From IMG/VR virus record IMGVR_UViG_2778261501_000004, positions 1 through 21,272 of that record: a stretch of 21,272 nt of DNA; one strand, 5' to 3'. Both the position numbers and the translations under genes were made by a program. The notes under the pieces are model-generated. The model searched no databases, was not told where the DNA came from, and saw only the letters and a program-made list of their open reading frames with translations. The stretch is from a virus (Duplodnaviria; Heunggongvirae; Uroviricota; Caudoviricetes). Positions 1-21,272 of this stretch are shown here, one piece after another (position 1 is the first letter of the stretch; each line of letters begins with the position of its first letter).

Positions 1-1011
1 TTATAACGTCACTCCGCCTTTTAGTGGATTCAGAGCGACGGCGTTCTGCAGGTAGTCAGGCGCAAGGTGCGCATAGGTCATTGTCTGCTGAATGCTCGCA
101 TGCCCCAGAATCTGTTGCAGTGCAATTATGTTGCCCCCATTCATCATGAAATGGCTTGCGAATGTATGCCGCAGAATGTGGGTTGCCTGATTGGGAGGTA
201 TATCAGGTTTCACTCTGCGTAAAATCCCGCAAAACTTCTCATAATCTACCTTGAACAATTTGGCGCTGGCCTCCTCTTTAACTTTTTTCTCCAGTTCCTC
301 AGAAATCGGCACTGTTCGCTTTTTACCGTTTTTGGTTTTCAGGAAGGTAACCCTGCAACTTGTAATCTGTGCTGGTTTTAGCGTGGCAACTTCCGTCCAT
401 CTTCCTCCAGTGCTCAGACATAAAAGCGCGACAAGTAAGTCATCACCAGTCAAAACATTTAGCAGTTTTTCGATTTCTGCTTTTTCCAGGAACGTCATTT
501 CAGGGTTAGCCTCCGTCAGTGGCGGCAGTCCGTGAATTGGGTGTTGCCCGGAAAATTCATCCAATTGAATTAATTTTGTGAACATGCCGGATAATCGGTA
601 CATGTCGCGGTTTATCGTTGCAGCACTGATGCCATCACGTAGTCGCATGGAGCGATAATCCATCAAAGCCCTTTTGTTCATCCGGCTCACTGGTATATCA
701 CCTATGCCGCTGATGGTTTTGAGCAGATGATTAAACTCTTTTGTCCCATGCTCGTGGTTTTGCCCGTGGTATTTCCACCAGATGTCGAGCAATTCTGTCA
801 AAGTTCGGCGGTCTGCTCGCTGGCCTCCCCATTCTTTCTGACTGGCATTGGCGATTGTGTATCGCTCAAATGCTAGTGCTTCAGCTTTTCTTTCAAATTT
901 CCTGCGGATGCGTTTTCCGTCGCGACCGCGAGGTCTAATGTCCACTTCATAGCGACCATCATCGAGCTTCTTAATTGCCATAAGAAAGCCCTCCGGCGCT
1001 GTATTCACCAT
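1..1011 (-). CDS. int: P2-type tyrosine integrase
   Basis: 336-aa ORF; C-terminal tyrosine-recombinase catalytic region (HILRHTFASHF ... LGHASIQQTMTYAHL); lies downstream of the repressor gene on the same strand, as in the P2 Pc-C-int operon. Stop codon is at window positions 1-3, so attL lies outside the window. Confidence 0.9.
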   Translation of the reverse strand: MVNTAPEGFLMAIKKLDDGRYEVDIRPRGRDGKRIRRKFERKAEALAFERYTIANASQKEWGGQRADRRTLTELLDIWWKYHGQNHEHGTKEFNHLLKTISGIGDIPVSRMNKRALMDYRSMRLRDGISAATINRDMYRLSGMFTKLIQLDEFSGQHPIHGLPPLTEANPEMTFLEKAEIEKLLNVLTGDDLLVALLCLSTGGRWTEVATLKPAQITSCRVTFLKTKNGKKRTVPISEELEKKVKEEASAKLFKVDYEKFCGILRRVKPDIPPNQATHILRHTFASHFMMNGGNIIALQQILGHASIQQTMTYAHLAPDYLQNAVALNPLKGGVTL

Positions 1012-1050
1012 CTTGGTGGCAAATGGTGAAAATGTAATTTTTATATAGAG

Positions 1051-1344
1051 TTAGCCAATCCTTTTCGCGGAGTGGTCGGATTCTGTTGACTCTGGCCCAA
1101 TGTGCGCGAGAGCCGGTGCGATTTGTCCCGCTTCCGGCGCTGTTTTATCTGTCATGAGCCATAGTGTGTATTTTTGGAACTGAGGTGCATTGGTGACCTG
1201 CAACACAACTTGGATGCCAGGGTCTTGATGGCCTCCTTCGTAATTCTTTAGCGTTCCTAACGCTATACCGCTGATTTCACTGAATTTTGCTTGAGTTAGC
1301 CCTTCCGATTGTCTTATTACTCTTAATTTCTGTGCGATATTCAT
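1051..1344 (-). CDS. P2 C-type immunity repressor (small HTH protein)
   Basis: The track ORF is 158 aa, but the plausible start is the ATG at 1342-1344 (MNIAQKLRVIRQSEGLTQAKFSEISGIALGTLKNYEGG...), giving about 97 aa with an XRE-like helix-turn-helix. Size and position (between int and cox, divergent from cox) match P2 gene C. No LexA/S24 peptidase domain. Confidence 0.8.
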   Translation of the reverse strand: MNIAQKLRVIRQSEGLTQAKFSEISGIALGTLKNYEGGHQDPGIQVVLQVTNAPQFQKYTLWLMTDKTAPEAGQIAPALAHIGPESTESDHSAKRIG

Positions 1345-1479
1345 TTGACATAGTCCTGACTTAATGACTATATTCCCCGAAAAGGTCATTAATCCAGAAC
1401 CTTTTCGGGCGTGAGTCCAGCGCCGCTTAAACGGTTCCAAGCGGTTTTTAAGGGGCTGGATCCTATGAGGGTAACATAG
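1345..1479. promoter_or_regulatory. early lysis/lysogeny switch region (face-to-face Pe/Pc promoters and operator expected)
   Basis: Divergent C and cox start codons flank this 135-bp interval. TTGACA at 1345-1350 with TATATT about 18 bp downstream is a candidate rightward Pe. TGAC repeats at 1346, 1357 and 1365 overlap it. Exact Pc not resolved. Confidence 0.5.
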
Positions 1480-1752
1480 ATGGAAGTTAATGATTATGTG
1501 ATTAAGTACCCGCTTGATGCGGTACATGCGGAAAAGTTTGCAGATTTATTGGGTAAACCAAAAACCGCAGTTACAGAAATGATAAAGGCTAACAAGCTAC
1601 CGGTTATCGAGCTTCGAGATCCAAATAAGCCGAAGGCCCGCGCCGGTGAGAAATGGGTTTTCATTCCAGAGTTTAATCGCGCTGTACGTGAGGCGTTTTA
1701 TAACCGACCGGTTGAACAGCGTGATGCATGGCTTTTGTGGATGGGGTTGTGA
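1480..1752 (+). CDS. cox: Cox-like excisionase / transcriptional repressor of Pc
   Basis: 90-aa ORF immediately rightward of the switch region, GAGGG RBS upstream; size, position and C-terminal WLxWxGL-type ending are as I recall for P2 Cox. Confidence 0.8.
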   Translation: MEVNDYVIKYPLDAVHAEKFADLLGKPKTAVTEMIKANKLPVIELRDPNKPKARAGEKWVFIPEFNRAVREAFYNRPVEQRDAWLLWMGL

Positions 1753-1754
1753 TT

Positions 1755-1925
1755 ATGAATGAGCCGCGTTGTATTGCTCAGTTACTGCGTAACGAAAGCC
1801 CCAGGGCGATTGACTTCACCATCACCCACGGGAAGGGACGCAAGGGAATCATTATCCGCACCAAAAAACAGAGTCCGTTAAAAAAGGCTCTGACCTTTCT
1901 GAAAAGCCGGAGGGTATGGAAATGA
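1755..1925 (+). CDS. hypothetical early protein (P2 orf78 position)
   Basis: ATG 3 nt after the cox stop; small basic ORF. The track offers an alternative start at 1728 that overlaps cox. No recognisable domain. Confidence 0.45.
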   Translation: MNEPRCIAQLLRNESPRAIDFTITHGKGRKGIIIRTKKQSPLKKALTFLKSRRVWK

Positions 1926-2422
1926 CAGTGATGACGCTCAATCTCGTTGAAAAACAGCCAGCAACTATGCGCCGGATAATTGGTAAGCATCTGGCCGTCC
2001 CTCGCTGGCAGGAGACATGTGATTATTATAATCAGATGATGGAACGCGAACGGCTAACGGTTTGCTTTCATGCGCAGTTAAAACAGCGTCACGCAACGAT
2101 GCGTTTTGAAGAAATGAATGACGTCGAACGTGAACGGCTGGTTTGTGCAATTGATGAATTGCGTGGGGCATTCTCAAAACGCCGTCAGGTTGGCGCAAGT
2201 GAGTATGCATATATTAGTTTTTTAACAGTCAGTCAGCGTCGCACTTTATTTATGCACGCACGACTGACAGAAAAAGAATTTAACCAGCCATACTGGCGAA
2301 TTAATGAAGAATCATGTTACTGGCGTGATGCTTTATTCCGTGCGTTACGTGAATTATTCAGTCTGTTTGAGTATGCACCGACAATTCTGACGTCGGTAAA
2401 ACCAGAGCAATATCTGCATTAA
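1916..2422 (+). CDS. replication protein B-like (helicase-loader position in P2)
   Basis: 168-aa ORF with GGAGG RBS, overlapping the stop of the previous ORF; the size is close to what I recall for P2 gpB (about 166 aa, unverified) and position matches. Assignment by synteny only. Confidence 0.6.
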   Translation: MEMTVMTLNLVEKQPATMRRIIGKHLAVPRWQETCDYYNQMMERERLTVCFHAQLKQRHATMRFEEMNDVERERLVCAIDELRGAFSKRRQVGASEYAYISFLTVSQRRTLFMHARLTEKEFNQPYWRINEESCYWRDALFRALRELFSLFEYAPTILTSVKPEQYLH

Positions 2423-2486
2423 ATAATTAACCAGAGTTTTTAACGCACTTAATCGTGCGGGGGCTTCTTTTTGCCTGGAGAAAGTC

Positions 2487-2711
2487 ATGCATACAGTTTC
2501 TGAAAACAAGTGCGGTAAATACGCATTACTGCTGCAACAGGCCAGAGCCGAAGCACAGGCCGACGCAGCGACACGCTTTTCTTCTCATCTTGACGCCATG
2601 ATTCGCCATATCACAAAGGCGGAGTTATCCCGCGTGGAGATAGTCGAGCTGCTCAGTCAGGAGTCGGAAAAATTTCACAATATCGGATTGTCTCGCGGGG
2701 AGGTGCTTTGA
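2487..2711 (+). CDS. hypothetical early protein (P2 orf80 position)
   Basis: 74-aa ORF with GGAG RBS; synteny only. Confidence 0.5.
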
Positions 2712-3010
2712 TGTCCTGTTCTAATTCAGTTGTATTACTGAATAACGCCTTAAAAATCGCCGTTATGAAAAATGGCGATTTATCTCTTATTCAACTTTGC
2801 CTTGATAAAGAAAAACGCGACATAACTGAATCTGTTATCGCGATTTATCAGAATGAATTAAACCTCCTGTCTGATGTGGTCAATTTACTTGTTAAACGCG
2901 CTGTATTCCACAAGCAAATTTCCTCAGTGGATGAACTGACAAAATTAACGACAGAACTTGCCAGTTATTGCGCTGATGTATCCAGGAAACTTAACGATAA
3001 AAGGAGCTGA
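2711..3010 (+). CDS. hypothetical early protein (P2 orf81 position)
   Basis: About 99-aa ORF; its ATG overlaps the stop of the previous ORF (TGATG). A TTG at 2708 is an alternative start. Synteny only. Confidence 0.5.
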   Translation: MSCSNSVVLLNNALKIAVMKNGDLSLIQLCLDKEKRDITESVIAIYQNELNLLSDVVNLLVKRAVFHKQISSVDELTKLTTELASYCADVSRKLNDKRS

Positions 3011-3012
3011 TA

Positions 3013-3237
3013 ATGCCGGACAACGTAGATTTTATTCAGGAACAACAGACTGAATTACTGGAGCGTCAGATTAACGCGGCAAGGGTAAAGCATTGCGGTG
3101 TTTCTGCGCTGGTTTGCGAAGAGTGTGACGCGCCAATACCTGCTGCCCGTCGTGCGGCTTATCCGTCAGCCACGCGTTGTGTTTCCTGCCAGTCAGTCTT
3201 TGAAGCAAAAAACAAACATTACCGGAGAACGGCATGA
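3013..3237 (+). CDS. TraR/DksA-family C4 zinc-finger protein (P2 orf82 position)
   Basis: 74-aa ORF with AAGGAG RBS; contains CEEC-x(n)-CVSC four-cysteine motif (CEECDAPIPAARRAAYPSATRCVSCQ) typical of phage TraR/DksA-like proteins. Confidence 0.7.
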   Translation: MPDNVDFIQEQQTELLERQINAARVKHCGVSALVCEECDAPIPAARRAAYPSATRCVSCQSVFEAKNKHYRRTA

Positions 3238-3509
3238 GTATTCGTATTGAAATTGGCGAACGTTATGTCGTTACCAGTGACAGCTTTCAGTTTATTCTCC
3301 ACGAGAAAAAGAGAGCGGAAAGCGGTAAAAACGCCGGTCAGGAATGGCTGTCGGTGGTTGGTTATTATCCGAAATTAAGCCAGCTCGTTTCCGGCCTGAT
3401 GCATCACGATATTCTGACCGGAAGCGCAAAGTCTTTTGCTGATTTAAACGCGCAGGTTGAGCAACTCAGCAGGCGTTGTTCAGAGGCTTTTGGCTCATAT
3501 GGCCGTTAA
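3234..3509 (+). CDS. hypothetical early protein (P2 orf83 position)
   Basis: 91-aa ORF; ATGA overlap with the previous stop; synteny only. Confidence 0.5.
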   Translation: MSIRIEIGERYVVTSDSFQFILHEKKRAESGKNAGQEWLSVVGYYPKLSQLVSGLMHHDILTGSAKSFADLNAQVEQLSRRCSEAFGSYGR

Positions 3510-5784
3510 AGCCTCCGGGCGTTTTGTCCCTCCGTCAGCATTTGCCGCAGGCACCGGTAAGGCGTTTACCGGTGCTTATGCATGGAACGCGCCACGCGAG
3601 GCTGTCGGGCGCGAAAGACCCCTTACACGTGACGAGATGCGTCAGGTGCAAGGTGTTTTATCCACGATTAACCGCCTGCCTTACTTTTTGCGCTCGCTGT
3701 TTACTTCACGCTATGACTACATCCGGCGCAATAAAAGCCCGGTGCACGGGTTTTATTTCCTCACATCCACTTTTCAGCGTCGTTTATGGCCGCGCATTGA
3801 GCGTGTGAATCAGCGCCATGAAATGAACACCGACGCGTCGTTGCTGTTTCTGGCAGAGCGCGACCAGTATGCGCGCCTGCCGGGGATGAATGACAAGGAG
3901 CTGAAAAAGTTTGCTGCCCGTATCTCATCGCAGCTTTTCATGATGTATGAGGAACTCTGCGATGCCTGGGTTGATGCACATGGCGAAAAAGAATCGCTGT
4001 TTACGGATGAGGCGCAGGCTCACCTCTATGGTCATGTTGCTGGCGCTGCGCGTGCTTTCAATATTTCCCCGCTTTACTGGAAAAAATACCGTAAAGGGCA
4101 GATGACCACGAGGCAGGCATATTCTGCCATTGCCCGCCTGTTTAACGATGAGTGGTGGACTCATCAGCTTAAAGGCCAGCGTATGCGCTGGCATGAGGCG
4201 TTACTGATTGCTGTCGGGGAGGTCAATAAAGACCGTTCTCCTTATGCCAGTAAACATGCCATTCGTGATGTGCGTGCGCGCCGCCAGGCAAATCTGGAAT
4301 TTCTTAAATCGTGTGACCTTGAAAACAAGGAAACCGGCGAGCGCATCGACCTTATCAGTAAGGTGATGGGCAGTATTTCTAATCCTGAAATTCGCCGGAT
4401 GGAGCTGATGAACACCATTGCCGGTATTGAGCGTTACGCCGCCGCAGAGGGTGATGTGGGGATGTTTATCACGCTGACCGCGCCGTCAAAGTATCACCCG
4501 ACACGTCAGGTCAGAAAAGGCGAAAGTAAAACCGTTCAGCTTAATCACGGCTGGAACGATGAGGCATTTAATCCAAAGGATGCGCAGCGTTATCTCTGCC
4601 GCATCTGGAGCCTGATGCGCACGGCATTCAAGGATAATGATTTACAGGTCTACGGTTTGCGTGTCGTCGAGCCACACCACGACGGAACGCCGCACTGGCA
4701 TATGATGCTTTTTTGTAATCCACGCCAGCGTAACCAGATTATCGAAATCATGCGTCGCTACGCGCTCAAAGAGGATGGAGACGAAAGAGGAGCTGCGCGA
4801 AACCGTTTTCAGGCAAAACACCTTAACCGGGGCGGTGCTGCGGGATATATCGCGAAATACATTTCAAAAAACATCGACGGCTATGCACTGGATGGTCAGC
4901 TCGATAACGACACCGGCAGGCCGCTGAAAGACACTGCAGCGGCTGTTACCGCATGGGCGTCAACGTGGCGCATCCCGCAATTTAAAACGGTTGGCCTGCC
5001 GACAATGGGGGCTTACCGTGAACTACGCAAATTGCCGCGCGGCGTCAGCATTGCTGATGAGTTTGACGAGCGCGTCGAGGCTGCACGCGCCGCCGCAGAC
5101 AGTGGTGATTTTGCGTTGTATATCAGCGCGCAGGGTGGGGCAAATGTCCCGCGCGATTGTCAGACTGTCAGGGTTGCCCGTAGCCCGTCGGATGACGTTA
5201 ACGAGTACGAGGAAGAAGTCGAGAGAGTGGTCGGCATTTACGCGCCGCATCTCGGCGCGCGTCATATTCATATCACCAGAACGACGGACTGGCGCATTGT
5301 TCCGAAAGTGCCGGTCGTTGAGCCTTTGACTTTAAAAAGCGGCATCGCCGCGCCTCGGAGTCCTGTCAATAACTGTGGAAAGCTTACCGGCGGTGATACT
5401 TCGTTACCGGCTCCCACACCTTCTGAGCACGTCGCAGCAGTGCTTAATCTGGTTGATGACGGTGTTATCGAATGGAATGACCCGGAGGTCGTGAGGGCGC
5501 TCAGGAGCGCATTAAAATACGGCCTGAGAACCTCAAACCGTCAGCAAAGAAACGGAAGCCCGTTAAAACCGCATGAAATTGCACCATCGGCCAGACTGAC
5601 CCGGTCGGAAAGAATGCAAATTACCCGTATCCGCGTTGACCTTGCTCATAACGGTATCAGGCCGCAGCGATGGGAGCTTGAGGCGCTGGCGCGTGGCGCG
5701 ACCGTAAATTATGACGGGAAAAAATTCACTTATCCGGTCGCTGATGAGTGGCCGGGATTCTCAACAGTAATGGAGTGGAAATGA
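3499..5784 (+). CDS. rolling-circle replication initiator endonuclease gpA
   Basis: Large ORF; HUH-type motif (TPHWHMMLF) and tyrosine pair (YIAKYISKNIDGY) typical of P2 A-family Rep proteins. Start taken at ATG 3499 (MAVKASGRF...), overlapping the previous gene; the track's longer ORF starts at 3457. Confidence 0.9.
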   Translation: MAVKASGRFVPPSAFAAGTGKAFTGAYAWNAPREAVGRERPLTRDEMRQVQGVLSTINRLPYFLRSLFTSRYDYIRRNKSPVHGFYFLTSTFQRRLWPRIERVNQRHEMNTDASLLFLAERDQYARLPGMNDKELKKFAARISSQLFMMYEELCDAWVDAHGEKESLFTDEAQAHLYGHVAGAARAFNISPLYWKKYRKGQMTTRQAYSAIARLFNDEWWTHQLKGQRMRWHEALLIAVGEVNKDRSPYASKHAIRDVRARRQANLEFLKSCDLENKETGERIDLISKVMGSISNPEIRRMELMNTIAGIERYAAAEGDVGMFITLTAPSKYHPTRQVRKGESKTVQLNHGWNDEAFNPKDAQRYLCRIWSLMRTAFKDNDLQVYGLRVVEPHHDGTPHWHMMLFCNPRQRNQIIEIMRRYALKEDGDERGAARNRFQAKHLNRGGAAGYIAKYISKNIDGYALDGQLDNDTGRPLKDTAAAVTAWASTWRIPQFKTVGLPTMGAYRELRKLPRGVSIADEFDERVEAARAAADSGDFALYISAQGGANVPRDCQTVRVARSPSDDVNEYEEEVERVVGIYAPHLGARHIHITRTTDWRIVPKVPVVEPLTLKSGIAAPRSPVNNCGKLTGGDTSLPAPTPSEHVAAVLNLVDDGVIEWNDPEVVRALRSALKYGLRTSNRQQRNGSPLKPHEIAPSARLTRSERMQITRIRVDLAHNGIRPQRWELEALARGATVNYDGKKFTYPVADEWPGFSTVMEWK

Positions 5785-6227
5785 TGGCAAAAATTCACGA
5801 GGTAAAGCTGCACGCCAAATATTTTGACCTTGTGCTGGAAGGAAAGAAACGCGCAGAGTTTCGGAAAAATGACCGTAATTATGAGCGCGGGGACACGTTG
5901 ATTTTGCATGAATGGGTACAGGGTGTGTATACGGGGCGAAAGGTTGAAGCCCGGATAACAGATGTTACTGACCTGTCAGACTGGCTGGAAGATTATGTCT
6001 TGCTAAGTATTGAGCGGCTTAATACAGGCGCATATGAGATTGTGAACTGGAAAGAACTTAGTGAGCGTGGTCTGGTATTCAGAATTAATCATGAAATTAT
6101 GCATCAGCTCGGCCTTGCTGTTATGTATGAGCCGGAGACGGGGCTGTCTGGCGGGGCAGTGGTTACTGCGGATGGGATATGGAACTATTCAGATGAACAG
6201 GTGGAGCGTACAAAGCAAAACGGGTGA
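5781..6227 (+). CDS. DUF3850/ASCH-like domain protein (cargo)
   Basis: Start overlaps the A stop (ATGATGG). N-terminal 80 aa (KIHEVKLHAKYFDLVLEGKKRAEFRKNDRNYERGDTLILHEW...) resemble the ASCH/PUA-like DUF3850 fold as I remember it; C-terminal half unassigned. Confidence 0.55.
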   Translation: MMAKIHEVKLHAKYFDLVLEGKKRAEFRKNDRNYERGDTLILHEWVQGVYTGRKVEARITDVTDLSDWLEDYVLLSIERLNTGAYEIVNWKELSERGLVFRINHEIMHQLGLAVMYEPETGLSGGAVVTADGIWNYSDEQVERTKQNG

Positions 6228-6442
6228 CTTGGATAATGCACAGAATACCAGGCGAGATACCGCACCATAAAACTAAAAATATCAAGCTGATGGCTATTGT
6301 TCAGCGTTTACAGCGGATTATGGTCAACGAAAATCTGACGCCCGATGAGCTGGTCGGGTGTGCCGAAATAGTCCGGGATAATTACGGGCGGTTTAACCAT
6401 ATCGGTCAATCAAGAGTTACGCCACCACCACGCAGACGATAG
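6224..6442 (+). CDS. hypothetical small protein
   Basis: 72-aa ORF overlapping the previous stop; no recognisable motif; could be non-coding. Confidence 0.3.
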   Translation: MTWIMHRIPGEIPHHKTKNIKLMAIVQRLQRIMVNENLTPDELVGCAEIVRDNYGRFNHIGQSRVTPPPRRR

Positions 6443-6639
6443 AGAACGCCGCCAGTCGTGAAACTTGTTTTCAGGGCTGGCGGGGTTGAACAACGAGCGA
6501 AGCGAGGCGTTAGCTAGGCTTTCTATATTGTTTACAATTAAACCTATCCAGAATTAATTGGAATTCAATTTGATCTTTTTCTCGCTACATATGGCCACAA
6601 GTACCAAAACGTGAGAACATCAAAGCTAGGCGAAATCTA

Positions 6640-6695
6640 GCTTTTCCATAGGAGTTGTTTCGTTATAATACGCGGTCGGTTTTTAGGAGGGGTCA
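6640..6695 (+). promoter_or_regulatory. candidate promoter and RBS of the methyltransferase gene
   Basis: Perfect TATAAT at 6664-6669 and AGGAGG at 6685-6690, 5 nt before the ATG at 6696; no convincing -35. Confidence 0.35.
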
Positions 6696-7634
6696 ATGCC
6701 AACTGTAGTGTCGCTTTTTTCCGGGTGTGGTGGTTCTGATGCAGGAGTCTTGAAGGCTGGGTTTGATGTTCTAATGGCGAATGACATTTTACCTTACGCT
6801 CGTGATGTGTATTTGGCTAACCATCCAGAAACTGATTATGTTTTGGGTGATGTCTCCACTATTGAATCGTTTCCATCTGCTGAACTGCTGGTTGGTTGCT
6901 ATCCCTGTCAAGGTTTTAGCCAAGGTGGAGTTCGAAAAGCTGATAGAAAAATTAATACGCTATACTTAGAGTTTGCAAGAGCTTTAAGAATAGTTAAGCC
7001 AAAAGCGTTCATTGTTGAAAACGTTTCTGGCATGTTGCGAAGTAACTTTGAACATTTGTTGAAAGATCAGTTCAAGGTTTTCGAAGAGGCTGGTTACAGA
7101 GTTAAATCTAAAATTCTAAATGCTTCTCATTTTGGTGTTGCTCAGGATCGTAAGCGCATTTTTATTGTTGGCATACATGAGAGATTTGGAGTTGATTTTT
7201 CGTTTCCAGTCGCGACTCATGGCGAAGGATTGAAAAGAGTGACTACTATCCGTGATGCGATAGGTTCGTTACCGGAATGGCCTGTTGGAGAGTTTTATGA
7301 TGCCGATTTCCATTGGTATTATTTATCAAGAAATCGCCGTCAGGACTGGGATCAAATCTCAAAAACCATAGTTGCTAATCCAAGGCATATGCCTTTACAT
7401 CCAATTAGTCCAACTCTTATAAAGTTAGGTCCAGATAAATGGCAATTTACATCAAATGAACGTGCACGGCGTTTTAGTTTTCGTGAGGCTGCTTATCTTC
7501 AAGGATTTAGTAATTTAGTTTTTCCTGAAACAGAGCGAGCATCCATGAATATGAAATATACAGTTGTCGGAAACGCCGTACCGCCCCCTTTATTCGAAGC
7601 GGTAGCGCGTTCATTACCTGATATTTGGGATTAA
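6696..7634 (+). CDS. DNA (cytosine-5)-methyltransferase
   Basis: 312 aa with canonical C5-MTase motifs in order: I FSGCGG, IV PCQGFS (catalytic Cys), VI ENV (FIVENVSG), VIII QDRKR, X GNAVPPP. AT-rich relative to phage backbone. Confidence 0.9.
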   Translation: MPTVVSLFSGCGGSDAGVLKAGFDVLMANDILPYARDVYLANHPETDYVLGDVSTIESFPSAELLVGCYPCQGFSQGGVRKADRKINTLYLEFARALRIVKPKAFIVENVSGMLRSNFEHLLKDQFKVFEEAGYRVKSKILNASHFGVAQDRKRIFIVGIHERFGVDFSFPVATHGEGLKRVTTIRDAIGSLPEWPVGEFYDADFHWYYLSRNRRQDWDQISKTIVANPRHMPLHPISPTLIKLGPDKWQFTSNERARRFSFREAAYLQGFSNLVFPETERASMNMKYTVVGNAVPPPLFEAVARSLPDIWD

Positions 7635-8560
7635 CTCAACACATAATCCATAGCCACTAAGTCATCAACAAACGTTAGATTGTCTTGGTGGTTTATCTGT
7701 GGATATTTTTTAGTCAGATTTACTAGTCTAAGTCTATCAACAAATATTGCAGCACCAAAATCACTCCTGTGAGCCCAGTCGCGGTTATGCCATCTTAAAT
7801 CTTGTGGAAGAAAATAATATGTTGACCATGGATGTAAGACAGGAAGCAAATTCCACAATTTAGCCGGTGTGGCCTCAAGTTGTTTTGCTACCCATTCAGT
7901 TTTTGAACATCCACATTGAGCAAGAGCAAGAGGTATAGACTCACGATTATCTCCCATATCATGCCAAGCGAGTATATCAATTCCTCCATCTCCCCTGTCA
8001 TTTGGTTTGAAATCTTCAATTGAAAAATTAGCTTTACATCTGAAATCTTGTGCTATTTTAGTTAACTTATCAAAGAGTAAGCCAGTGTAGTGACCTGAAT
8101 TACCTGCGCTAGCCCAACAGTGTTTAACTGTTGCTCCTTCAGGCATGAGGGCTTGAAATATGGGATAGCTTATTTTCTCAAATGCACTTGTAAATATGTC
8201 ACGGTGACTATTTTCTATATATTTTATATTTGCACAGGCTAAGAGTGCTATGTATAGTTTTTCATTTTGATTGTAATCAGCAATATTATGCTTTCTTAAG
8301 AATAATGTGTCTCTGTCATCAGAAAAATAAAAGGGGTAATCATCACCGAAAAGGCTAATTCTTGTGTCAATGAATGTCGCTGCAAAATTCCATTTATCGT
8401 CAGAATACCCGCGTGACTTTGGATTTGCTTGAGACCTAAAGAGGCTTGCTAGATCTCCTCTACTAAAGCATTTGTCTGTATTTACTGTAGCCCATAACTC
8501 TAAATAGTCGCCCCATAAATATGGCTCGTTATCGGGTAATGAGTCCATGTGAAAAATCAT
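7631..8560 (-). CDS. putative nuclease, Mrr-like PD-(D/E)xK signature (cargo, second gene of minus-strand pair)
   Basis: 309-aa ORF; start ATG overlaps the stop of the upstream gene (TAATG); contains NDRGDGGIDILAW followed by a Q-x-x-x-x-K region, reminiscent of the GDGGID core of Mrr-type restriction nuclease domains. 3' end overlaps the MTase stop by about 4 nt. Confidence 0.55.
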   Translation of the reverse strand: MIFHMDSLPDNEPYLWGDYLELWATVNTDKCFSRGDLASLFRSQANPKSRGYSDDKWNFAATFIDTRISLFGDDYPFYFSDDRDTLFLRKHNIADYNQNEKLYIALLACANIKYIENSHRDIFTSAFEKISYPIFQALMPEGATVKHCWASAGNSGHYTGLLFDKLTKIAQDFRCKANFSIEDFKPNDRGDGGIDILAWHDMGDNRESIPLALAQCGCSKTEWVAKQLEATPAKLWNLLPVLHPWSTYYFLPQDLRWHNRDWAHRSDFGAAIFVDRLRLVNLTKKYPQINHQDNLTFVDDLVAMDYVLS

Positions 8561-9639
8561 TATTCATCTTCCTCACGGATGCTTTCAATTTGTTTTTTAA
8601 TTTTACGCGCTATAGATAATATTTCACTCGAACGATATTCGTGATTTTCTGTGAAAGAGTGCGTGTTGAGAAGCATATCCCAAACAACTCTTAGTCGAGA
8701 TTCTGCTTGGTCTAGAGCTTGATCCAAAGCCTCTTCATGACCATTTGTATATAAATAGGCTTCTTCAATGTTTTTAGACTTTATGAGGTTATCTATTGCT
8801 GCTTCATTGGCAACTATTGTTGAAAGATTTTTGATCTTGCGACTTTCACCAATGATAGTATCACCCTGTTGATCTCTAACAAAGAACCAAGCAAAAAGCT
8901 TCTCAAGGTTTTCCTCTTTCAGGTTTTTAGCAGATAAATCTTTTCTATCATCTAAGCCTAACCAGTCTGTAATGTTAGTATATCCAAGAGCTGTTGTTAT
9001 GTAGGAAAAATCGACATCATTCTCACTCATATGCAAATTATAGAAGTTTTTATCAGCAGCGGTTTCATATAATTTGAGTGAAGTTAATAAAAGGCCGACG
9101 TAATAAGATTTACTGCCAATTTCTTTAGCTAATGACTTTAAAAGAGATTCTTTGTCTGCACCTTTGTAGAAAGTTTCACTAAGCTCCTTAAGATACTTAG
9201 CTTTAGAAAGTGCATCCCATTCTTTCACACCAGTAATGTGTCTATATCCGATATAACGTAACACATCTTCACGTCTTGTGTAGACGAGACAAGGTAATTT
9301 AGTCGGTTTATAAGTAGCATCGTCCTGAATTAGTTGAATGCTTTTTTCTTTTCTTTTAGGTGGTAAAAGTTCGCTATTGAGCAACTTTACGGCAGCAAGG
9401 CGACGGTTACCCTCAACTACAACATATTTTTTCCCGGAACTAACCACTAAAAGAGGTTCTCCGGGAAAGTAATCTTGTTCCCCTATGGACAGCATCAAAT
9501 CTTGTACACTTTCGTCATCAAGCATTTCTTCAATGACGGCATTTTCAGATCCAGCCCTATCGTTTAACCGATAGAAACGTGGGTTTTCAGGATCAAACTC
9601 TAGATCTTCCGTGTTTATGTATTTGATTTCGTTGCTCAT
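8560..9639 (-). CDS. ParB/Srx N-terminal domain protein (cargo, first gene of minus-strand pair)
   Basis: 359-aa ORF; residues 1-90 show the ParB N-terminal pattern (DPENPRF ... SIGEQDYFPGEPLLVV ... YVVVEGNRRLAAVKLL, i.e. the GxRR arginine box); remainder predicted helical, unassigned. Confidence 0.65.
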   Translation of the reverse strand: MSNEIKYINTEDLEFDPENPRFYRLNDRAGSENAVIEEMLDDESVQDLMLSIGEQDYFPGEPLLVVSSGKKYVVVEGNRRLAAVKLLNSELLPPKRKEKSIQLIQDDATYKPTKLPCLVYTRREDVLRYIGYRHITGVKEWDALSKAKYLKELSETFYKGADKESLLKSLAKEIGSKSYYVGLLLTSLKLYETAADKNFYNLHMSENDVDFSYITTALGYTNITDWLGLDDRKDLSAKNLKEENLEKLFAWFFVRDQQGDTIIGESRKIKNLSTIVANEAAIDNLIKSKNIEEAYLYTNGHEEALDQALDQAESRLRVVWDMLLNTHSFTENHEYRSSEILSIARKIKKQIESIREEDE

Positions 9640-9830
9640 AATTGTATTCTGCGCAGATATAAGGATGACTTGCTACAGCATAACCTTATGTTTAGCATCT
9701 GTCATTATGATGGCTGCCTTATGCATGATTTTGCATCCATTTTTTATTTTATTTTTTTGGGGGCGCATTAGGCCCGATATGGTTTTTGGAGACGATGCGT
9801 TTGCATCAAAACAGCCCCATGAAGCGGGCG

Positions 9831-9849
9831 GGCGAGGCGGGGAAAGCAC
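9831..9849. other. cos cohesive-end site (P2-type 19-nt sequence)
   Basis: GGCGAGGCGGGGAAAGCAC matches what I recall as the P2 19-nt cohesive end, and sits where cos is expected, between the A-side cargo and the Q/P packaging genes. Confidence 0.6.
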
Positions 9850-10018: not shown

Positions 10019-11053
10019 TCAGCCGTTGTCAGTGTCCAGTGAGTAGTTTTTAAAGCGGATGACCTCCTGACCGAGCCAGCCGTTTATCTCGCGGATCCTG
10101 TCCTGTAACGGGATAAGCTCATTGCGGACAAAGACCTTTGCCACTTTCTCAATATCACCCAGCGACCCGACGTTCTCCGGCTTGCCGCCCATCAACTGAA
10201 AGGGGATGCGGTGCGCGTCCAGCAGGTCAGCGGCGCTGGCTTTTTTGATATTAAAAAAATCGTCCTTCGTTGCCACTTCACTGAGCGGGATAATTTTTAT
10301 GCCGTCGGCTTTCCCCTGTGGGGCATAGAGAAACAGATTTTTAAAGTTATTGCGGCCTTTCGACTTAACCATGTTTTCGCGAAGCATTTCGATATCGTTG
10401 CGATCCTGCACGGCATCGGTGACGTACATGATGTATCCGGCATGTGCGCCATTTTCGTAATACTTGCGGCGGAACAGCGTGGCCGACTCATTCAGCCAGG
10501 CAGAATTAAGGGCGCTCAGATATTCCGGCAGGCCGTACAACTCCTGATTGATATCCGGCTCCAGCAGGTGAAACACGGAGCCGGGCGTGAAGGCTGTCGG
10601 CTCGTTGAAGGACGGCACCCACCAGTAAACATCCTCCTCCACGCCACGGCGGGTATATTTTGCCGGTGAGGTTTCCAGTCTGATGACCTTACCGGTGGTG
10701 CTGTAACGCTTTTCCAGAAACGCATTACCGAACACCAGAAAATCCAGCACAAAGCGGCTGAAATCCTGCTGGGAAAGCCACGGATGCGGGATAAATGTCG
10801 AGGCCAGAATATTACGTTTGACGTAAATCGGTGAGCTGTGATGCACGGCAGCACGCAGGCTTTTTGCCAGACCGGTAAAGCTGACCGGTGGCTCATACCA
10901 TCTGCCGTTACTGATGCACTCGACGTAATCCAGAATGTCACGGCGGTCGAGTACCGGCACCGGCTCACCAAAGGTGAATGCCTCCATTTTCGGGGCGCTG
11001 GCGGTCATTGTTTTCACCGCTGGCTGCGGTGTTTTCCCTTTTTTCTTGCTCAT
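10019..11053 (-). CDS. portal protein gpQ
   Basis: 344 aa, leftward, start overlaps terminase stop; size and position as P2 Q. Confidence 0.85.
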   Translation of the reverse strand: MSKKKGKTPQPAVKTMTASAPKMEAFTFGEPVPVLDRRDILDYVECISNGRWYEPPVSFTGLAKSLRAAVHHSSPIYVKRNILASTFIPHPWLSQQDFSRFVLDFLVFGNAFLEKRYSTTGKVIRLETSPAKYTRRGVEEDVYWWVPSFNEPTAFTPGSVFHLLEPDINQELYGLPEYLSALNSAWLNESATLFRRKYYENGAHAGYIMYVTDAVQDRNDIEMLRENMVKSKGRNNFKNLFLYAPQGKADGIKIIPLSEVATKDDFFNIKKASAADLLDAHRIPFQLMGGKPENVGSLGDIEKVAKVFVRNELIPLQDRIREINGWLGQEVIRFKNYSLDTDNG

Positions 11054-19259: not shown

Positions 19260-19832
19260 ATGAACACTCTCGCAAATATTCAGGAACTCGCGCGCGCACT
19301 GCGTAACATGATCCGCACCGGCATTATCGTCGAAACCGACCTTAACGCCGGTCGCTGCCGTGTGCAGACCGGCGGCATGTGCACCGACTGGCTTCAGTGG
19401 CTGACCCATCGCGCCGGTCGTTCGCGCACATGGTGGGCACCTTCCGTGGGGGAACAGGTGCTGATTCTGGCCGTGGGCGGTGAACTCGACACGGCATTCG
19501 TTCTGCCGGGGATTTATTCCGGCGATAACCACGCGCCGTCTGCGTCGGCGGATGCCCTGCATATCCGTTTCCCTGACGGGGCGGTGATTGAGTATGAACC
19601 CGAAACCAGTGCACTTACGGTAGCGGAGTTCTCCATCAGCCTGGCTACCGGTCGGGCAGATATTTACACGGAAACACCGGTCAAAGTGTCAGGCTTTAAG
19701 CGTGTCATAGACGAGCAGGACTGGACAATCACTAAGGTGACACATTTTCTGAATAATAGCGGCTTCACGACGTCCTTAGAGCTTGAGGTAAGGCTTTCTG
19801 ATGTGGAGTACGAAACCGAAGATGATGAGTGA
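19260..19832 (+). pseudogene. baseplate spike gpV remnant (N-terminal part of V joined to unrelated C-terminal sequence; probable V-to-D deletion fusion)
   Basis: 190-aa ORF; N-terminal ~120 aa look like gpV, but the acidic C-terminus (…RLSDVEYETEDDE) is unlike a spike domain, and ogr follows 83 bp later with no W, J, I, H, G, F, E, T, U or D genes in between. Confidence 0.55.
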
Positions 19833-19851
19833 TGTGTTTTATTTTATCTGT

Positions 19852-19880
19852 TTGTTTTATAAGGATAAATTAACTAAAAT
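19852..19880 (+). promoter_or_regulatory. candidate sigma70 promoter of ogr
   Basis: TTGTTT (19852-19857), 17-bp spacer, TAAAAT (19875-19880); 35 nt upstream of the ogr ATG. Confidence 0.4.
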
Positions 19881-19914
19881 GGCAACATCAACAAAACCGG
19901 AAGAGGTGCTCGCG

Positions 19915-20133
19915 ATGTTTCATTGTCCTTTATGCCAGCATGCCGCACATGCGCGTACAAGCCGCTATATCACTGACACGACAAAAGAGCGTTATCACCA
20001 GTGCCAGAACGTGAATTGCAGCGCCACGTTCATTACTTATGAGTCGGTACAGCGATACATCGTGAAGCCGGGAGAAGTCCACGCCGTGAGGCCGCACCCG
20101 TTGCCGTCAGGGCAGCAAATTATGTGGATGTGA
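19915..20133 (+). CDS. ogr: late gene transcriptional activator Ogr (Cys4 zinc finger)
   Basis: 72-aa ORF MFHCPLCQHAAHARTSRYITDTTKERYHQCQNVNCSATF...; CxxC-x(n)-CxxxxC zinc-finger arrangement; matches P2 Ogr as I recall it. Confidence 0.9.
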   Translation: MFHCPLCQHAAHARTSRYITDTTKERYHQCQNVNCSATFITYESVQRYIVKPGEVHAVRPHPLPSGQQIMWM

Positions 20134-20143
20134 TCACAAAAAT

Positions 20144-20170
20144 AGCCCCTCAGTTGAGGGGCTTTATTTA
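20144..20170 (+). terminator. rho-independent terminator after ogr
   Basis: AGCCCCTC-AGTT-GAGGGGCT hairpin followed by TTTATTTA. Confidence 0.6.
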
Positions 20171-20202
20171 TGGTCGATGTGGACGCTATGTGGACAGTGC
20201 TT

Positions 20203-20222
20203 GATATAAATCCATTTATATC
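20203..20222. repeat. perfect 9-bp inverted repeat (GATATAAAT cc ATTTATATC)
   Basis: Read directly; lies in the interval where the prophage right end (attR) must fall. Confidence 0.5.
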
Positions 20223-20261
20223 ATCAGGTTAGGTGCTTTTTTGTGACACCATCCCTGTCTT

Positions 20262-20288
20262 CCCCCACATGATGTGGGGGTTTTTTTT
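20262..20288 (+). terminator. strong rho-independent terminator, probably the host cpxP 3' end (CpxQ sRNA terminator)
   Basis: CCCCCACAT-g-ATGTGGGGG perfect hairpin followed by eight T; sits about 80 bp upstream of fieF, where cpxP ends in E. coli K-12. Confidence 0.55.
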
Positions 20289-20369
20289 ATCCTCAATTTG
20301 CCTGCTGCTTAATGCATTGCAGATGATTTGCTTCCGTTATACTAGCGTCAGTTGATAGCGGGAGTATTT

Positions 20370-21272
20370 ATGAATCAATCTTATGGACGGCTGGTCAGTC
20401 GGGCGGCGATTGCTGCGACGGCGATGGCTTCGTTGCTATTGCTGATTAAAATTTTTGCATGGTGGTATACCGGGTCGGTGAGTATTCTCGCCGCGCTGGT
20501 GGATTCGCTGGTGGATATCGGCGCGTCGTTGACGAATTTACTGGTGGTGCGATATTCCCTGCAACCTGCCGACGATAATCACTCGTTTGGTCACGGTAAA
20601 GCAGAGTCCCTCGCGGCGCTGGCGCAAAGTATGTTTATCTCCGGTTCGGCACTATTCCTGTTTTTGACGGGTATTCAACATCTGATATCTCCAACACCGA
20701 TGACAGATCCAGGCGTCGGGGTTATCGTGACAATTGTGGCGCTAATTTGTACGATTATCCTTGTCTCGTTTCAGCGTTGGGTGGTGCGCCGGACGCAAAG
20801 CCAGGCGGTGCGGGCTGATATGCTACATTACCAGTCTGATGTTATGATGAACGGCGCAATTCTGCTGGCGCTGGGGTTGTCCTGGTACGGCTGGCATCGC
20901 GCCGATGCTCTGTTTGCATTGGGAATCGGCATCTATATTTTATATAGCGCGTTACGCATGGGATATGAGGCGGTACAGTCATTACTGGATCGCGCATTGC
21001 CTGATGAGGAACGGCAAGAAATTATTGATATCGTGACTTCCTGGCCGGGTGTTAGCGGCGCTCACGATCTTCGCACGCGGCAGTCAGGGCCGACCCGCTT
21101 TATTCAGATTCATTTGGAAATGGAAGACTCTCTGCCTTTGGTTCAGGCACATATGGTGGCGGATCAGGTAGAGCAGGCTATTTTACGGCGTTTTCCGGGA
21201 TCGGATGTAATTATCCATCAGGACCCCTGTTCCGTCGTACCCAGGGAGGGTAAACGGTCTATGCTTTCATAA
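20370..21272 (+). CDS. fieF: cation-diffusion-facilitator Fe2+/Zn2+ efflux transporter FieF (YiiP)
   Basis: 300-aa [39 protein letters not shown]...; start at ATG 20370 with GGGAG RBS (track ORF starts 6 codons earlier); multiple TM helices plus cytoplasmic C-terminal domain; matches E. coli FieF as I recall it. Confidence 0.9.

What the first reader, a model, noticed from the sequence alone, without database searches (positions are those of the whole stretch)
6443..9830. Candidate uncharacterised restriction/defence module in the P2 A-cos (tin/old) hotspot
In P2 the interval between replication gene A and cos carries the dispensable orf91, tin and old genes, and this position is a known hotspot for anti-phage cargo in P2-like prophages. 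Here tin and old are absent. The interval instead holds a C5-cytosine methyltransferase with a full motif set and, convergent to it, a translationally coupled two-gene operon: a 359-aa ParB/Srx-domain protein followed by a 309-aa protein with a GDGGID, Mrr-like PD-(D/E)xK signature. The stretch is visibly more AT-rich than the flanking phage genes, which suggests horizontal acquisition. A methyltransferase convergent with nuclease genes is a restriction-modification-like layout, but a ParB-domain partner plus an Mrr-like nuclease is not a textbook type II arrangement, and I cannot assign the pair to any named system.
Basis: partly seen in the sequence, partly recalled or inferred. Interest (0 to 1): 0.85.

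Follow-up and report, generated by a model that had tools for sequence, protein, structure and literature searches.

The report
ParB-nuclease-methylase restriction module in prophage
The cargo slot of this P2-like prophage holds a widespread but unstudied three-gene unit (a DNA cytosine methylase, a ParB-like DNA-binding switch protein and a restriction-type nuclease) that most likely cuts unmethylated foreign DNA, which would make it a restriction system built around a protein normally used for chromosome segregation.

Summary
Between a terminator-like hairpin (6445-6487) and the exact P2 cos site (9831-9849) lie a HaeIII-like C5-cytosine methyltransferase (6696-7634, +) and a convergent TAATG-coupled pair. 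The pair is a 359-aa ParB-type protein (NTP-binding N-domain, ParB-like HTH, helical C-terminus) and a 309-aa winged-helix plus restriction-endonuclease-fold protein with invariant D191/D195/Q215/K226.

The three genes form a fixed mobile unit. In about 60 loci, from enterobacterial P2 phages to Pseudomonas phages and chromosomes of Methylotenera, Gallionella and Methylomonas, an intact pair never lacks an adjacent methyltransferase. Two loci have a broken nuclease gene beside an intact methylase.

A distant subtype keeps the same layout but uses a D12 N6-adenine methylase of the PD-λ-5_B family. That links the module to PD-λ-5, a validated defence made of a ParB/HEPN fusion plus a methylase.

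The best explanation is a methylation-sensitive restriction system whose nuclease depends on a ParB-type NTP switch. Its function is untested. The cassette was catalogued by Rousset et al. (2022) and sequenced in phage Wφ, but never explained. It is the obvious candidate for the λ restriction reported in E. coli W in 1967. I rate it a new variant of a known kind, of fairly high interest.

The parts
6445..6487 (+). Terminator-like hairpin just after the last conserved P2 early-operon ORF (6224-6442). It marks the left edge of the cargo.
   Evidence: Inverted repeat with 19-nt arms, 84% complementary, 5-nt loop. GC starts to fall here.
6488..6695 (+). MTase upstream region. It contains TATAAT at 6664-6669, the Shine-Dalgarno sequence AGGAGG at 6685-6690, an 8-bp perfect inverted repeat (6622-6629 / 6637-6644), and a TGGCCA palindrome at 6592-6597.
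   Evidence: Sequence read and repeats. The promoter scan gave no more sites than shuffled sequence, so these are sequence observations only.
6696..7634 (+). C5-cytosine DNA methyltransferase, 312 aa, M.HaeIII-like. It is the modification (self-marking) component, with predicted GGCC-type specificity.
   Evidence: Pfam DNA_methylase 2.9e-60. Full-length match to M.HaeIII 1dct at 3e-46, running through the target-recognition domain, with R212/R214/R230 aligned to HaeIII R225/R227/R243. These residues are >=95% invariant in 50 non-redundant homologues.
7631..8560 (-). 309-aa nuclease subunit ('B309'). It has an N-terminal winged-helix domain (about residues 1-140) and a C-terminal restriction-endonuclease-fold domain with the GDGGxD...Q-C...K core (D191, D195, Q215, K226).
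8560..9639 (-). 359-aa ParB-type subunit. It has a ParB/Srx NTP-binding N-domain (FDPENPR at 15-21; EGNRR at 76-80; RHITGVKEW at 133-141), a ParB-like HTH (about 160-196, LAKEIGSKSYYVGLLLTSL) and a long helical C-terminus (about 240-358).
9640..9830 (-). Upstream (promoter) region of the ParB-B309 operon. It abuts cos.
   Evidence: A promoter-like ATGACA-17-TATGCT lies at 9705-9677 on the minus strand, but the number of such sites is no greater than in shuffles. No inverted repeats were found.
9831..9849 (+). P2 cos cohesive-end sequence GGCGAGGCGGGGAAAGCAC. It is the right boundary of the cargo slot and not part of the module.
   Evidence: Exact 19/19 match. The cos sequence itself is from my own knowledge of P2.

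Best explanation
This is a three-gene, methylation-based restriction (self/non-self) module carried as prophage cargo.

Proposed mechanism:
1. The HaeIII-like C5-methyltransferase methylates host and prophage DNA at its target, probably GGCC.
2. The ParB-type protein and the 309-aa winged-helix/REase-fold protein are made from one coupled operon and act together as the restriction activity against incoming unmethylated DNA.
3. The ParB-type subunit is probably a dimer. It binds DNA through its ParB-like HTH and uses its conserved NTP pocket as a switch, closing or loading on DNA as ParB and KorB do.
4. That recruits or licenses the nuclease subunit, whose D191/D195/Q215/K226 site cuts the DNA.

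What is shown and what is inferred:
- Shown here: the domain identities, the obligatory three-gene linkage, the co-evolution of the pair, and the conservation of the catalytic and NTP-pocket residues.
- Inferred: that methylation blocks attack, that the target is GGCC, which subunit reads the methylation state, that an NTP is required, and whether the outcome is direct cleavage of the invader or a broader abortive-type DNA degradation.
For: 1. Obligatory linkage. Of 67 loci examined, 57 have the intact triad (54 distinct nuclease sequences). None has an intact ParB+nuclease pair without an adjacent MTase where at least 1.2 kb of flank exists. Searching from the ParB side gives 48 of 51. The contexts are unrelated:
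   - the P2 gpA-cos slot;
   - a different slot in a Pseudomonas phiCTX-like phage;
   - chromosomes of Methylotenera, Sulfurimicrobium, Gallionella, Methylomonas, Porticoccus and Aquabacterium.
2. R-M-type decay. L020 has the nuclease gene split and ParB truncated with the MTase intact. L065 has the nuclease gene interrupted by about 0.9 kb with the MTase intact. The reverse pattern was never seen.
3. MTase class swap. In Rhodobacterales and their prophages the same layout (ParB, then nuclease, then a convergent MTase) uses a D12 N6-adenine MTase instead (L116, L118/119, L120). The pair is therefore tied to DNA methylation as such.
4. The pair evolves as a unit. Pairwise-distance correlation between the two proteins is 0.93. 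They evolve fast (50-54% mean identity), while the MTase is slow (74%) with an invariant target-recognition domain.
5. Nuclease fold and invariant D...D...Q...K core.
6. ParB box I/II/III and HTH are conserved, and the closest structures are the CTP-switch proteins KorB, PadC and Spo0J.
7. Kinship with a validated defence. The ParB N-domain is homologous to PD-Lambda-5_A (1e-24). The N6A subtype's MTase matches PD-Lambda-5_B at 5e-87. PD-λ-5 ('ParB/HEPN, methyltransferase') protects broadly and was called an 'RM+Abi' system.
8. Precedent that a ParB-like protein can be the cognate activator of a DNA-acting enzyme (PMC13229309).
9. Vsr lies next to the MTase in one locus, as is typical for active C5-MTases.
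10. Location in the experimentally established P2 defence hotspot (PMC9122126, PMC9519451).
Against: - No functional data exist for this cassette in the literature I could search.
- Rousset et al. cloned eight further systems from the hotspot and found three active. None of the three described matches this cassette, and I could not establish whether it was among those tested.
- The MTase is only loosely co-phylogenetic with the pair (r about 0.17). Nearly identical MTases (98%) sit next to pairs that are only 25-32% identical. A classical sequence-matched R/M pair would not obviously predict this.
- The canonical ExK lysine position is a glycine (Q215-C-G217), so the catalytic lysine assignment (K226) is inferred from conservation only.
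- Pfam Mrr_cat is not matched.
- In the 5mYOX-ParB system, NTP-pocket mutations did not abolish function, so conservation of the pocket does not prove an NTP requirement.
- No promoter, operator or controller element could be identified above chance.
Confidence: 0.72

Rival explanations
1. PD-λ-5-like abortive infection. The ParB-type protein senses unmethylated or otherwise aberrant (phage) DNA and unleashes the 309-aa nuclease non-specifically on all DNA, killing the cell. The MTase only sets the 'self' state. This shares the self-marking logic of the main explanation but differs in outcome, giving population-level rather than direct immunity.
For: The ParB N-domain is shared with PD-Lambda-5_A, whose effector is a HEPN domain and which its authors interpreted as 'RM+Abi'. 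The same ParB head combines with interchangeable effectors (HEPN or REase fold) and interchangeable MTases (D12 or C5), as sensor-effector Abi systems do. Fast evolution of the pair beside a static MTase fits an arms-race sensor.
Against: The effector here has its own winged-helix DNA-binding domain and a type II REase-like core, as in direct-acting restriction enzymes. The decay pattern, with the nuclease gene lost and the MTase kept, fits either model. No data discriminate the two.
Confidence: 0.15
2. Two unrelated functions that merely travel together. The MTase would be a phage anti-restriction or epigenetic orphan methylase. The ParB+nuclease pair would be an independent system, for example a modification-dependent (type IV-like, MspJI/Mrr-style) nuclease or a superinfection-exclusion nuclease.
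For: The best fold matches include the modification-dependent enzymes MspJI and AspBHI. MTase and pair phylogenies are weakly correlated, and the pair can be swapped beside an almost unchanged MTase. ParB-superfamily DUF262 domains sense modified DNA in GmrSD and SspE (PMC12065111).
Confidence: 0.07
3. A maintenance or regulatory function. The ParB-type protein would act as a partition or KorB-like transcriptional silencer for the prophage, or as an activator or targeting factor for the methyltransferase (an epigenetic module). The 309-aa protein would be an accessory DNA-binding factor with a degenerate nuclease fold.
For: It has full ParB/KorB architecture with an HTH and a dimerisation-like C-terminus. 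ParB homologues have been proposed to direct DNA-modifying enzymes and one activates a phage dioxygenase. Orphan ParBs are common on prophages (PMC12704722).
Against: There is no ParA partner and no N-terminal ParA-binding LG(K/R)GL motif (read directly from the protein sequence; flanks). P2 integrates and needs no partition. The nuclease-site residues are invariant across 1,491 clusters' worth of diversity, which argues for catalysis rather than a degenerate fold. The selective loss of the nuclease gene with MTase retention is what one expects for a toxic gene.
Confidence: 0.06

Closest known systems
PD-λ-5 (Vassallo et al. 2022; PADLOC PD-Lambda-5_A/B)
   Same: It is a prophage-borne defence that combines a protein carrying the same ParB N-domain subfamily with a DNA methyltransferase. 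Our residues 1-152 match PD-Lambda-5_A at 1e-24. The N6A subtype of our family uses a PD-Lambda-5_B-type MTase (5e-87). PD-λ-5 is experimentally protective against most phages tested and needed an mrr-deleted host.
   Different: PD-λ-5 has two genes: a ParB-N/HEPN fusion of about 450-500 aa plus a D12 N6-adenine MTase. Here the ParB protein carries an HTH and a helical C-terminus instead of HEPN, the effector is a separate winged-helix/REase-fold protein with no PADLOC match, and the MTase is a C5 HaeIII-like enzyme arranged convergently.
Type II restriction-modification systems with HaeIII-like C5 methyltransferases
   Same: A small monospecific C5-MTase with the full motif set and a HaeIII-like target-recognition domain. 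It is tightly linked and convergent to a gene for a PD-(D/E)xK restriction-endonuclease-fold protein. Other shared traits are horizontal mobility, an occasional Vsr neighbour, and decay by loss of the nuclease gene.
   Different: The nuclease always comes with a co-translated ParB-type NTP-pocket protein. Its family matches no Pfam restriction-enzyme model. Its ExK lysine is displaced. To my knowledge, no described type I-IV enzyme uses a ParB/Srx-fold subunit with an HTH.
NTP-dependent two-component restriction enzymes (McrBC; by analogy Type III)
   Same: In the proposed working, a nucleotide-switch DNA-binding subunit is paired with a separate PD-(D/E)xK nuclease subunit encoded in one operon. 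This comparison rests on my own knowledge of McrBC.
   Different: McrB is an AAA+ GTPase and McrBC attacks methylated DNA with no cognate MTase. Here the switch protein has the ParB-CTPase fold and the system carries its own MTase. NTP dependence is not shown here.
GmrSD / BrxU / SspE (ParB-DUF262 + nuclease)
   Same: A ParB-superfamily NTPase-type domain is coupled to a DNA nuclease in anti-phage defence, and the ParB-like part senses the modification state of DNA (PMC12065111).
ParB / KorB / Noc CTP-dependent DNA clamps
   Different: There is no ParA partner or ParA-binding motif and no identified parS. Box III is divergent (RHxxGxxxW rather than ENxQR). The obligatory partner is a nuclease plus an MTase. 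The nucleotide bound is unknown, and the fold can bind CTP, ATP or GTP (PMC12704722).
Mrr / MspJI-family nucleases
   Same: A winged-helix or other N-terminal DNA-binding domain is followed by a C-terminal PD-(D/E)xK domain with a GDGGxD...Q-x-K-like signature. MspJI is the best Foldseek hit (2e-4).
   Different: Pfam Mrr_cat is not matched even at E<=1. There is no SRA-like domain. The QxK lysine is replaced (Q215-C-G217), with invariant K226 lying downstream. Unlike type IV enzymes, the protein is strictly linked to a methyltransferase.

Membership tests
Type II R-M system | An active-looking DNA methyltransferase with SAM-binding and catalytic motifs | tested here: met
   Pfam DNA_methylase 2.9e-60, covering profile positions 2-322 of 324. 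FSGCGG, PCQ and ENV motifs are visible in the sequence. Full-length alignment to M.HaeIII.
Type II R-M system | A linked endonuclease with a recognised nuclease fold and conserved catalytic residues | tested here: met
Type II R-M system | The endonuclease and methyltransferase recognise the same sequence, and methylation blocks cleavage | not testable with these tools
   Only indirect evidence: the pair never occurs without an MTase, and the nuclease gene decays while the MTase stays intact.
Type II R-M system | The endonuclease acts alone (homo-oligomer, Mg2+ only, no NTP-binding partner) | tested here: inconclusive
   A co-translated ParB-type protein with a conserved NTP pocket always accompanies and co-evolves with the nuclease (r=0.93). 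This argues against a classical stand-alone type IIP enzyme, but there is no biochemistry.
PD-λ-5 | An A protein homologous along its whole length to PD-Lambda-5_A (ParB-N fused to a HEPN-type effector) | tested here: not met
   Matches cover only residues 1-152 of our protein and positions 1-161 of the 440-500-position profiles. A true member (phage AS1) matches over residues 3-404 at 1e-42. The rest of our protein resembles ParB HTH and helical domains.
PD-λ-5 | A B protein of the PD-Lambda-5_B family (D12-class N6-adenine MTase) | tested here: not met
   Our MTase is a C5 enzyme, and PD-Lambda-5_B is not among its 25 best PADLOC matches. AS1's MTase matches PD-Lambda-5_B at 4e-103 and Pfam MethyltransfD12. 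The distant L116 subtype does meet this feature (5e-87).
ParABS partition / canonical ParB | An adjacent ParA ATPase and an N-terminal ParA-binding motif (L/F/I)G(K/R)G(L/F/I) | tested here: not met
   The neighbours are the nuclease, the MTase, gpA, orf91 and the portal gene. The motif is absent from the protein sequence. The motif definition comes from PMC12704722.
ParABS partition / canonical ParB | ParB-CTPase-fold N-domain with the box II GxxRxxA arginine motif, followed by an HTH and a C-terminal domain | tested here: met
Mrr / type IV modification-dependent restriction | Membership of Mrr_cat (PF04471) and stand-alone occurrence without a cognate MTase | tested here: not met
   No Mrr_cat hit at E<=0.1 for the window protein, nor at E<=1 for three homologues. 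The protein is always MTase-linked.
GmrSD/SspE-type ParB-DUF262 nucleases | A DUF262 domain with QRxxxW and DGxQR motifs fused to a DUF1524 nuclease | tested here: not met
PADLOC candidate PDC-M38 | An A protein matching the 715-position PDC-M38A profile along its length, plus the system's other components | tested here: inconclusive
   Residues 42-348 match profile positions 58-356 of 715 at 1.8e-25, so only the first half of the profile is covered. No literature on PDC-M38 was found and its composition could not be looked up.

The most novel reading that the evidence does not exclude
This would be a previously unrecognised class of restriction-modification system. In it, a ParB-type nucleotide-gated DNA clamp is the methylation-sensitive target-reading and communication subunit: it loads at unmethylated sites and then slides or closes on DNA. 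That licenses a separate REase-fold nuclease.

The same 'ParB head' logic would underlie PD-λ-5, where the effector is HEPN. The Wφ allele of this cassette (mth/gp96/gp98) would be the unexplained genetic basis of the λ restriction reported in E. coli W in 1967, a strain whose genome paper called it 'restriction minus'.
Probability: 0.33. Interest if true: 0.85.

Novelty: new variant of a known kind. Interest (0 to 1): 0.72.

Why it matters
If the reading is right, a chromosome-segregation switch fold (ParB-CTPase) has been recruited as the working partner of a restriction nuclease. No described type I-IV system has that arrangement.

- **Scale.** The nuclease family alone spans about 1,500 clusters at 50% identity, has no Pfam model, and is invisible to current defence finders. 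Such loci are currently scored as orphan methylases plus 'ParB' and 'hypothetical' genes.
- **PD-λ-5.** It would give a mechanistic handle on PD-λ-5, which is validated but unexplained, by showing that the ParB head is a portable methylation-linked sensor combined with different effectors and methylases.
- **A tractable model.** Phage Wφ and E. coli W or C(Wφ) lysogens have been available for decades, and about 2.6% of complete E. coli genomes carry one of three alleles.
- **An old discrepancy.** It could settle why λ was reported to be restricted in E. coli W in 1967 although the strain lacks hsd, mcrBC and mrr.
- **Practical consequence.** A HaeIII-like methylase in prophages affects how well DNA from these strains can be cloned in McrBC+/Mrr+ hosts.

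Tried and rejected
**Searches that gave nothing for the 309-aa protein**
- Pfam, NCBIfam and PADLOC gave no hit.
- Against PDB sequences, the single-sequence search gave only a non-significant MspJI hit (E=1.3), and a 38-sequence profile search gave nothing. The fold had to come from structure prediction.

**Family memberships rejected**
- PD-λ-5: only the ParB N-domain is shared.
- The partition interpretation. Rousset's 'putative plasmid partitioning system' turned out to be the StbA cassette, not this one. There is no ParA.
- Type IV or Mrr-like: not an Mrr_cat member, and always linked to an MTase.

**Control elements**
- The promoter and terminator scan found no more sites than in shuffled sequence.
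- No operator-like repeat lies upstream of the ParB operon, so I make no regulatory claim.

**Other checks**
- I looked for ParB-nuclease fusions that would prove a physical partnership. None appeared among the top 150 of 1,491 family clusters.
- GGCC counts in the module are as expected from base composition (5 observed, 4.8 expected), so they are uninformative.

**Literature**
- Searches for a described ParB+REase+MTase system, for PDC-M38 and for Wφ TO-region function found nothing specific.
- Kerszman et al. 1967, Pizer et al. 1968 and Odegrip et al. 2006 are not held. The historical link therefore rests on a title, a strain-table citation and my memory.

Full report
**1. What is in the window**

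The finding sits in a P2-like prophage. It is flanked on the left by replication gene A (3457-5784; Pfam Phage_GPA 6.6e-123), an orf91-like DUF3850/ASCH gene (5748-6227) and a small conserved ORF (6224-6442). On the right are portal gene Q (10019-11053, minus strand) and terminase.

A terminator-like hairpin at 6445-6487 and an exact match to the 19-nt P2 cos sequence at 9831-9849 (the cos sequence is from my own knowledge) bracket the cargo.

GC drops to 0.34-0.41 across 6500-9500, against 0.52-0.60 outside.

The cargo is exactly three genes:
- an MTase at 6696-7634 (+);
- a 309-aa gene at 7631-8560 (-), here called B309;
- a 359-aa gene at 8560-9639 (-).

The two minus-strand genes are coupled by a TAATG stop/start overlap. 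The MTase and B309 converge with overlapping stop codons.

**2. The three proteins**

*The MTase.* It is a complete C5-cytosine enzyme (Pfam 2.9e-60). It aligns end to end with M.HaeIII (3e-46), including the target-recognition domain. There R212, R214 and R230 align with HaeIII R225, R227 and R243. From memory of the HaeIII-DNA structure, these are the base-contacting arginines. They are at least 95% invariant in 50 non-redundant homologues. GGCC-type specificity is therefore plausible, but it is inferred.

*B309.* It matches nothing in Pfam, NCBIfam or PADLOC and only an unannotated PHROG (phrog_3984).
- A 38-sequence alignment gave a confident model (pLDDT 90.5, pTM 0.90).
- Foldseek places its C-terminal half with MspJI (2e-4), AspBHI, EcoT38I, SgrAI and NucC.
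- The N-terminal half matches winged-helix DNA-binding domains.
- Across relatives only 24-30% identical, D191, D195, Q215 and K226 stay invariant within the pattern GDGGxD...GQCxC...W..K. So do D18, E21, R67, Y103 and D275-R276.
- This looks like an Mrr/MspJI-style D...Q...K site with the lysine displaced. The lysine assignment is inferred.

*The 359-aa protein.* It is a full ParB-type protein.
- Box I (FDPxNPR), box II (EGNRR) and an RHxxGxxxW motif are invariant.
- Residues around 160-196 read like the canonical ParB helix-turn-helix.
- There is no ParA gene and no ParA-binding motif.

**3. The three genes are one unit**

The identical cassette is in one complete E. coli genome. Diverged alleles are in phage Wφ (mth, gp96, gp98), in a P2 isolate and in vB_EcoM-12474III.

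Outside P2 the same order and orientation occur in several places:
- chromosomes of Methylotenera and Sulfurimicrobium;
- eleven further species genomes;
- a different slot of a Pseudomonas phiCTX-like phage;
- about 40 IMG/VR contigs.

Counting all loci gives the following:
- 57 of 67 have the intact triad, with 54 distinct B309 sequences.
- None has an intact pair without an MTase where flank exists.
- Three are cut by contig ends.
- Two show clear disruption of the nuclease gene beside an intact MTase (L020 and L065).

Starting from the ParB side gives 48 of 51.

ParB and B309 co-evolve tightly (distance correlation 0.93) and fast (54% and 50% mean identity). The MTase is slow (74%) and only loosely coupled to them (r about 0.17). 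Wφ and 12474III have 98%-identical MTases beside pairs that are 25-32% identical.

**4. The MTase class can change while the layout stays**

The most distant pair found (L116) is followed by a convergent D12-class N6-adenine MTase that abuts the nuclease stop codon. Two further independent Rhodobacterales contexts show the same arrangement.

Their nuclease keeps D191, D195, Q215 and K226, and their ParB keeps boxes I-III. This is what one expects if the pair's activity is governed by DNA methylation as such.

**5. Link to a validated defence**

PADLOC matches the first roughly 150 residues of the ParB protein to PD-Lambda-5_A (1e-24). Vassallo et al. describe PD-λ-5 as 'ParB/HEPN, methyltransferase'. 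[quoted passage not shown]

A true PD-λ-5 in Marinobacter phage AS1 matches A full length (1e-42) and B (4e-103), and B is a D12 MTase. The MTase of the L116 subtype is the same family (PD-Lambda-5_B at 5e-87).

So there is a series:
- ParB head + HEPN + D12 MTase (PD-λ-5);
- ParB + REase-fold nuclease + D12 MTase (L116 type);
- ParB + REase-fold nuclease + C5 MTase (this window).

Our module is not a PD-λ-5 member, since two defining features were tested and not met. It is a relative that probably works on the same principle.

**6. Mechanism**

The best-supported reading (confidence 0.72) is a methylation-based restriction module. The MTase marks self DNA, and the ParB-type protein plus B309 attack unmarked DNA.

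Section 3 (linkage and decay pattern), section 4 (the MTase class swap), section 2 (conserved catalytic core) and the hotspot location support the first part.

The ParB subunit acting as an NTP-gated DNA-binding switch that licenses the nuclease is inferred from three things: fold, conserved pocket and HTH; co-translation and co-evolution; and the precedent of a ParB-like cognate activator of a phage DNA dioxygenase.

Within the C5-linked set, the ParB HTH region is better conserved (0.51) than the nuclease's winged helix (0.37) while the MTase target-recognition domain is static.

Rivals are abortive-type action as proposed for PD-λ-5 (0.15), mere co-travelling of an orphan MTase with a type IV-like pair (0.07), and a maintenance or regulatory role (0.06).

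**7. What is known and what is new**

The cassette has been sequenced since Wφ. It is listed as 'DNA_methylase + hypothetical + ParBc' in Rousset et al. 2022, Table S5A.

I found no functional description in any of these places:
- defence-system papers;
- the ParB-CTPase-fold survey, which treats prophage orphan ParBs generically;
- P2 diversity papers, which treat dcm-like genes as auxiliary;
- PDC-M38, for which nothing was found.

The B309 family is large (1,491 clusters at 50% identity, 442 with E<=1e-30), always about 300-370 aa and never fused.

In 5,426 complete E. coli genomes, the window allele occurs once, the 12474III allele 36 times and the Wφ allele 104 times. Each allele is at least 99% identical internally.

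**8. A historical lead**

E. coli W carries the Wφ allele. Its genome paper calls W 'restriction minus' because it lacks hsdMRS, mcrBC and mrr, and says none of its mobile elements encode genes of note.

[quoted passage not shown] I could not read it. My recollection that the restriction was attributed to the prophage is unverified.

The three-gene cassette is Wφ's only cargo in this slot, so it is the obvious candidate. The absence of mcrBC and mrr in W fits tolerance of a HaeIII-like methylase.

**9. Verdict**

The module is best classed as a new variant of a known kind: an R-M or PD-λ-5-like methylation-based defence with an unprecedented ParB-type subunit and an unnamed nuclease family. 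The function is untested.

Noticed in passing
window 5748-6227 (+): The orf91-like gene encodes DUF3850/ASCH (7.6e-18) plus a C-terminal DUF7415 (9.7e-14), and its start overlaps the 3' end of gpA. Kaljevic et al. 2025 report that ParB-CTPase folds are often fused to DUF3850 in phages. Here a DUF3850 protein and an orphan ParB sit about 3.4 kb apart in the same slot. In P2, Wphi and L-413C this gene belongs to the conserved backbone.
   Followed up: partly
L021 (Yersinia phage L-413C, NC_004745.1 29530-30522): The plague-diagnostic phage L-413C keeps only a 330-aa ParB-type gene (12474III allele) directly abutting orf91. The nuclease and MTase genes are gone, so this is a remnant of the triad.
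   Followed up: partly
L020 (Ca. Dechloromonas phosphorivorans MAG) 1803-4360; L065 (IMGVR_UViG_2945748529_000005) 5001-8137: Two decayed copies. In L020 the nuclease gene is split into 101-aa and 83-aa pieces and ParB is truncated to 296 aa, with an intact 316-aa MTase. In L065 the nuclease gene is interrupted by about 0.9 kb of inserted DNA, with ParB and the MTase intact. I did not identify the inserted DNA.
   Followed up: partly
L006 (Sulfurimicrobium MAG) 10171-10599: A Vsr very-short-patch-repair endonuclease gene (Pfam 2.1e-24) lies immediately next to the module's C5-MTase, followed by a PIN/MazE toxin-antitoxin pair. Vsr was seen in only this one locus among those inspected.
   Followed up: partly
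E. coli W (NC_017635.1 4339638-4341741) and PMC3032704: The E. coli W genome paper calls the strain 'restriction minus' and says its mobile elements carry nothing of note. [quoted passage not shown] The strain carries the Wphi methylase/ParB/nuclease cassette. How a C5-methylating prophage coexists with a putative 5mC-restriction system was not examined.
   Followed up: no
L056 (IMGVR_UViG_3300011875_000001) 695-3932; L062 5988-7004; L047 6787-7941: Layout variants. In L056 the MTase lies upstream of and co-directional with ParB and the nuclease. In L062 a more divergent C5-MTase (258 bits) follows the nuclease co-directionally. In L047 a 384-aa C5-MTase of another subfamily (179 bits) lies about 0.86 kb away.
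   Followed up: partly
window 6592-6597 and whole window: A TGGCCA palindrome, which contains the predicted GGCC target, lies about 70 bp upstream of the MTase's TATAAT. Over the whole 21-kb window GGCC is mildly under-represented (64 observed, 89.6 expected from base composition). Inside the module it is as expected (5 versus 4.8).
   Followed up: no
window 1-3250 and 19500-20500: Two further stretches of lower GC (0.43-0.49) than the structural genes, with a sharp AT-skew change near 1500. These are presumably the P2 immunity/early region and another variable region. I did not annotate them.
   Followed up: no
L117 (IMGVR_UViG_3300039008_000208) 4390-5532: The most distant ParB relative found (380 aa, 65 bits) has neither a B309-family neighbour nor an MTase. 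An RdgC-like gene lies downstream. The ParB type therefore also occurs outside the triad.
   Followed up: partly
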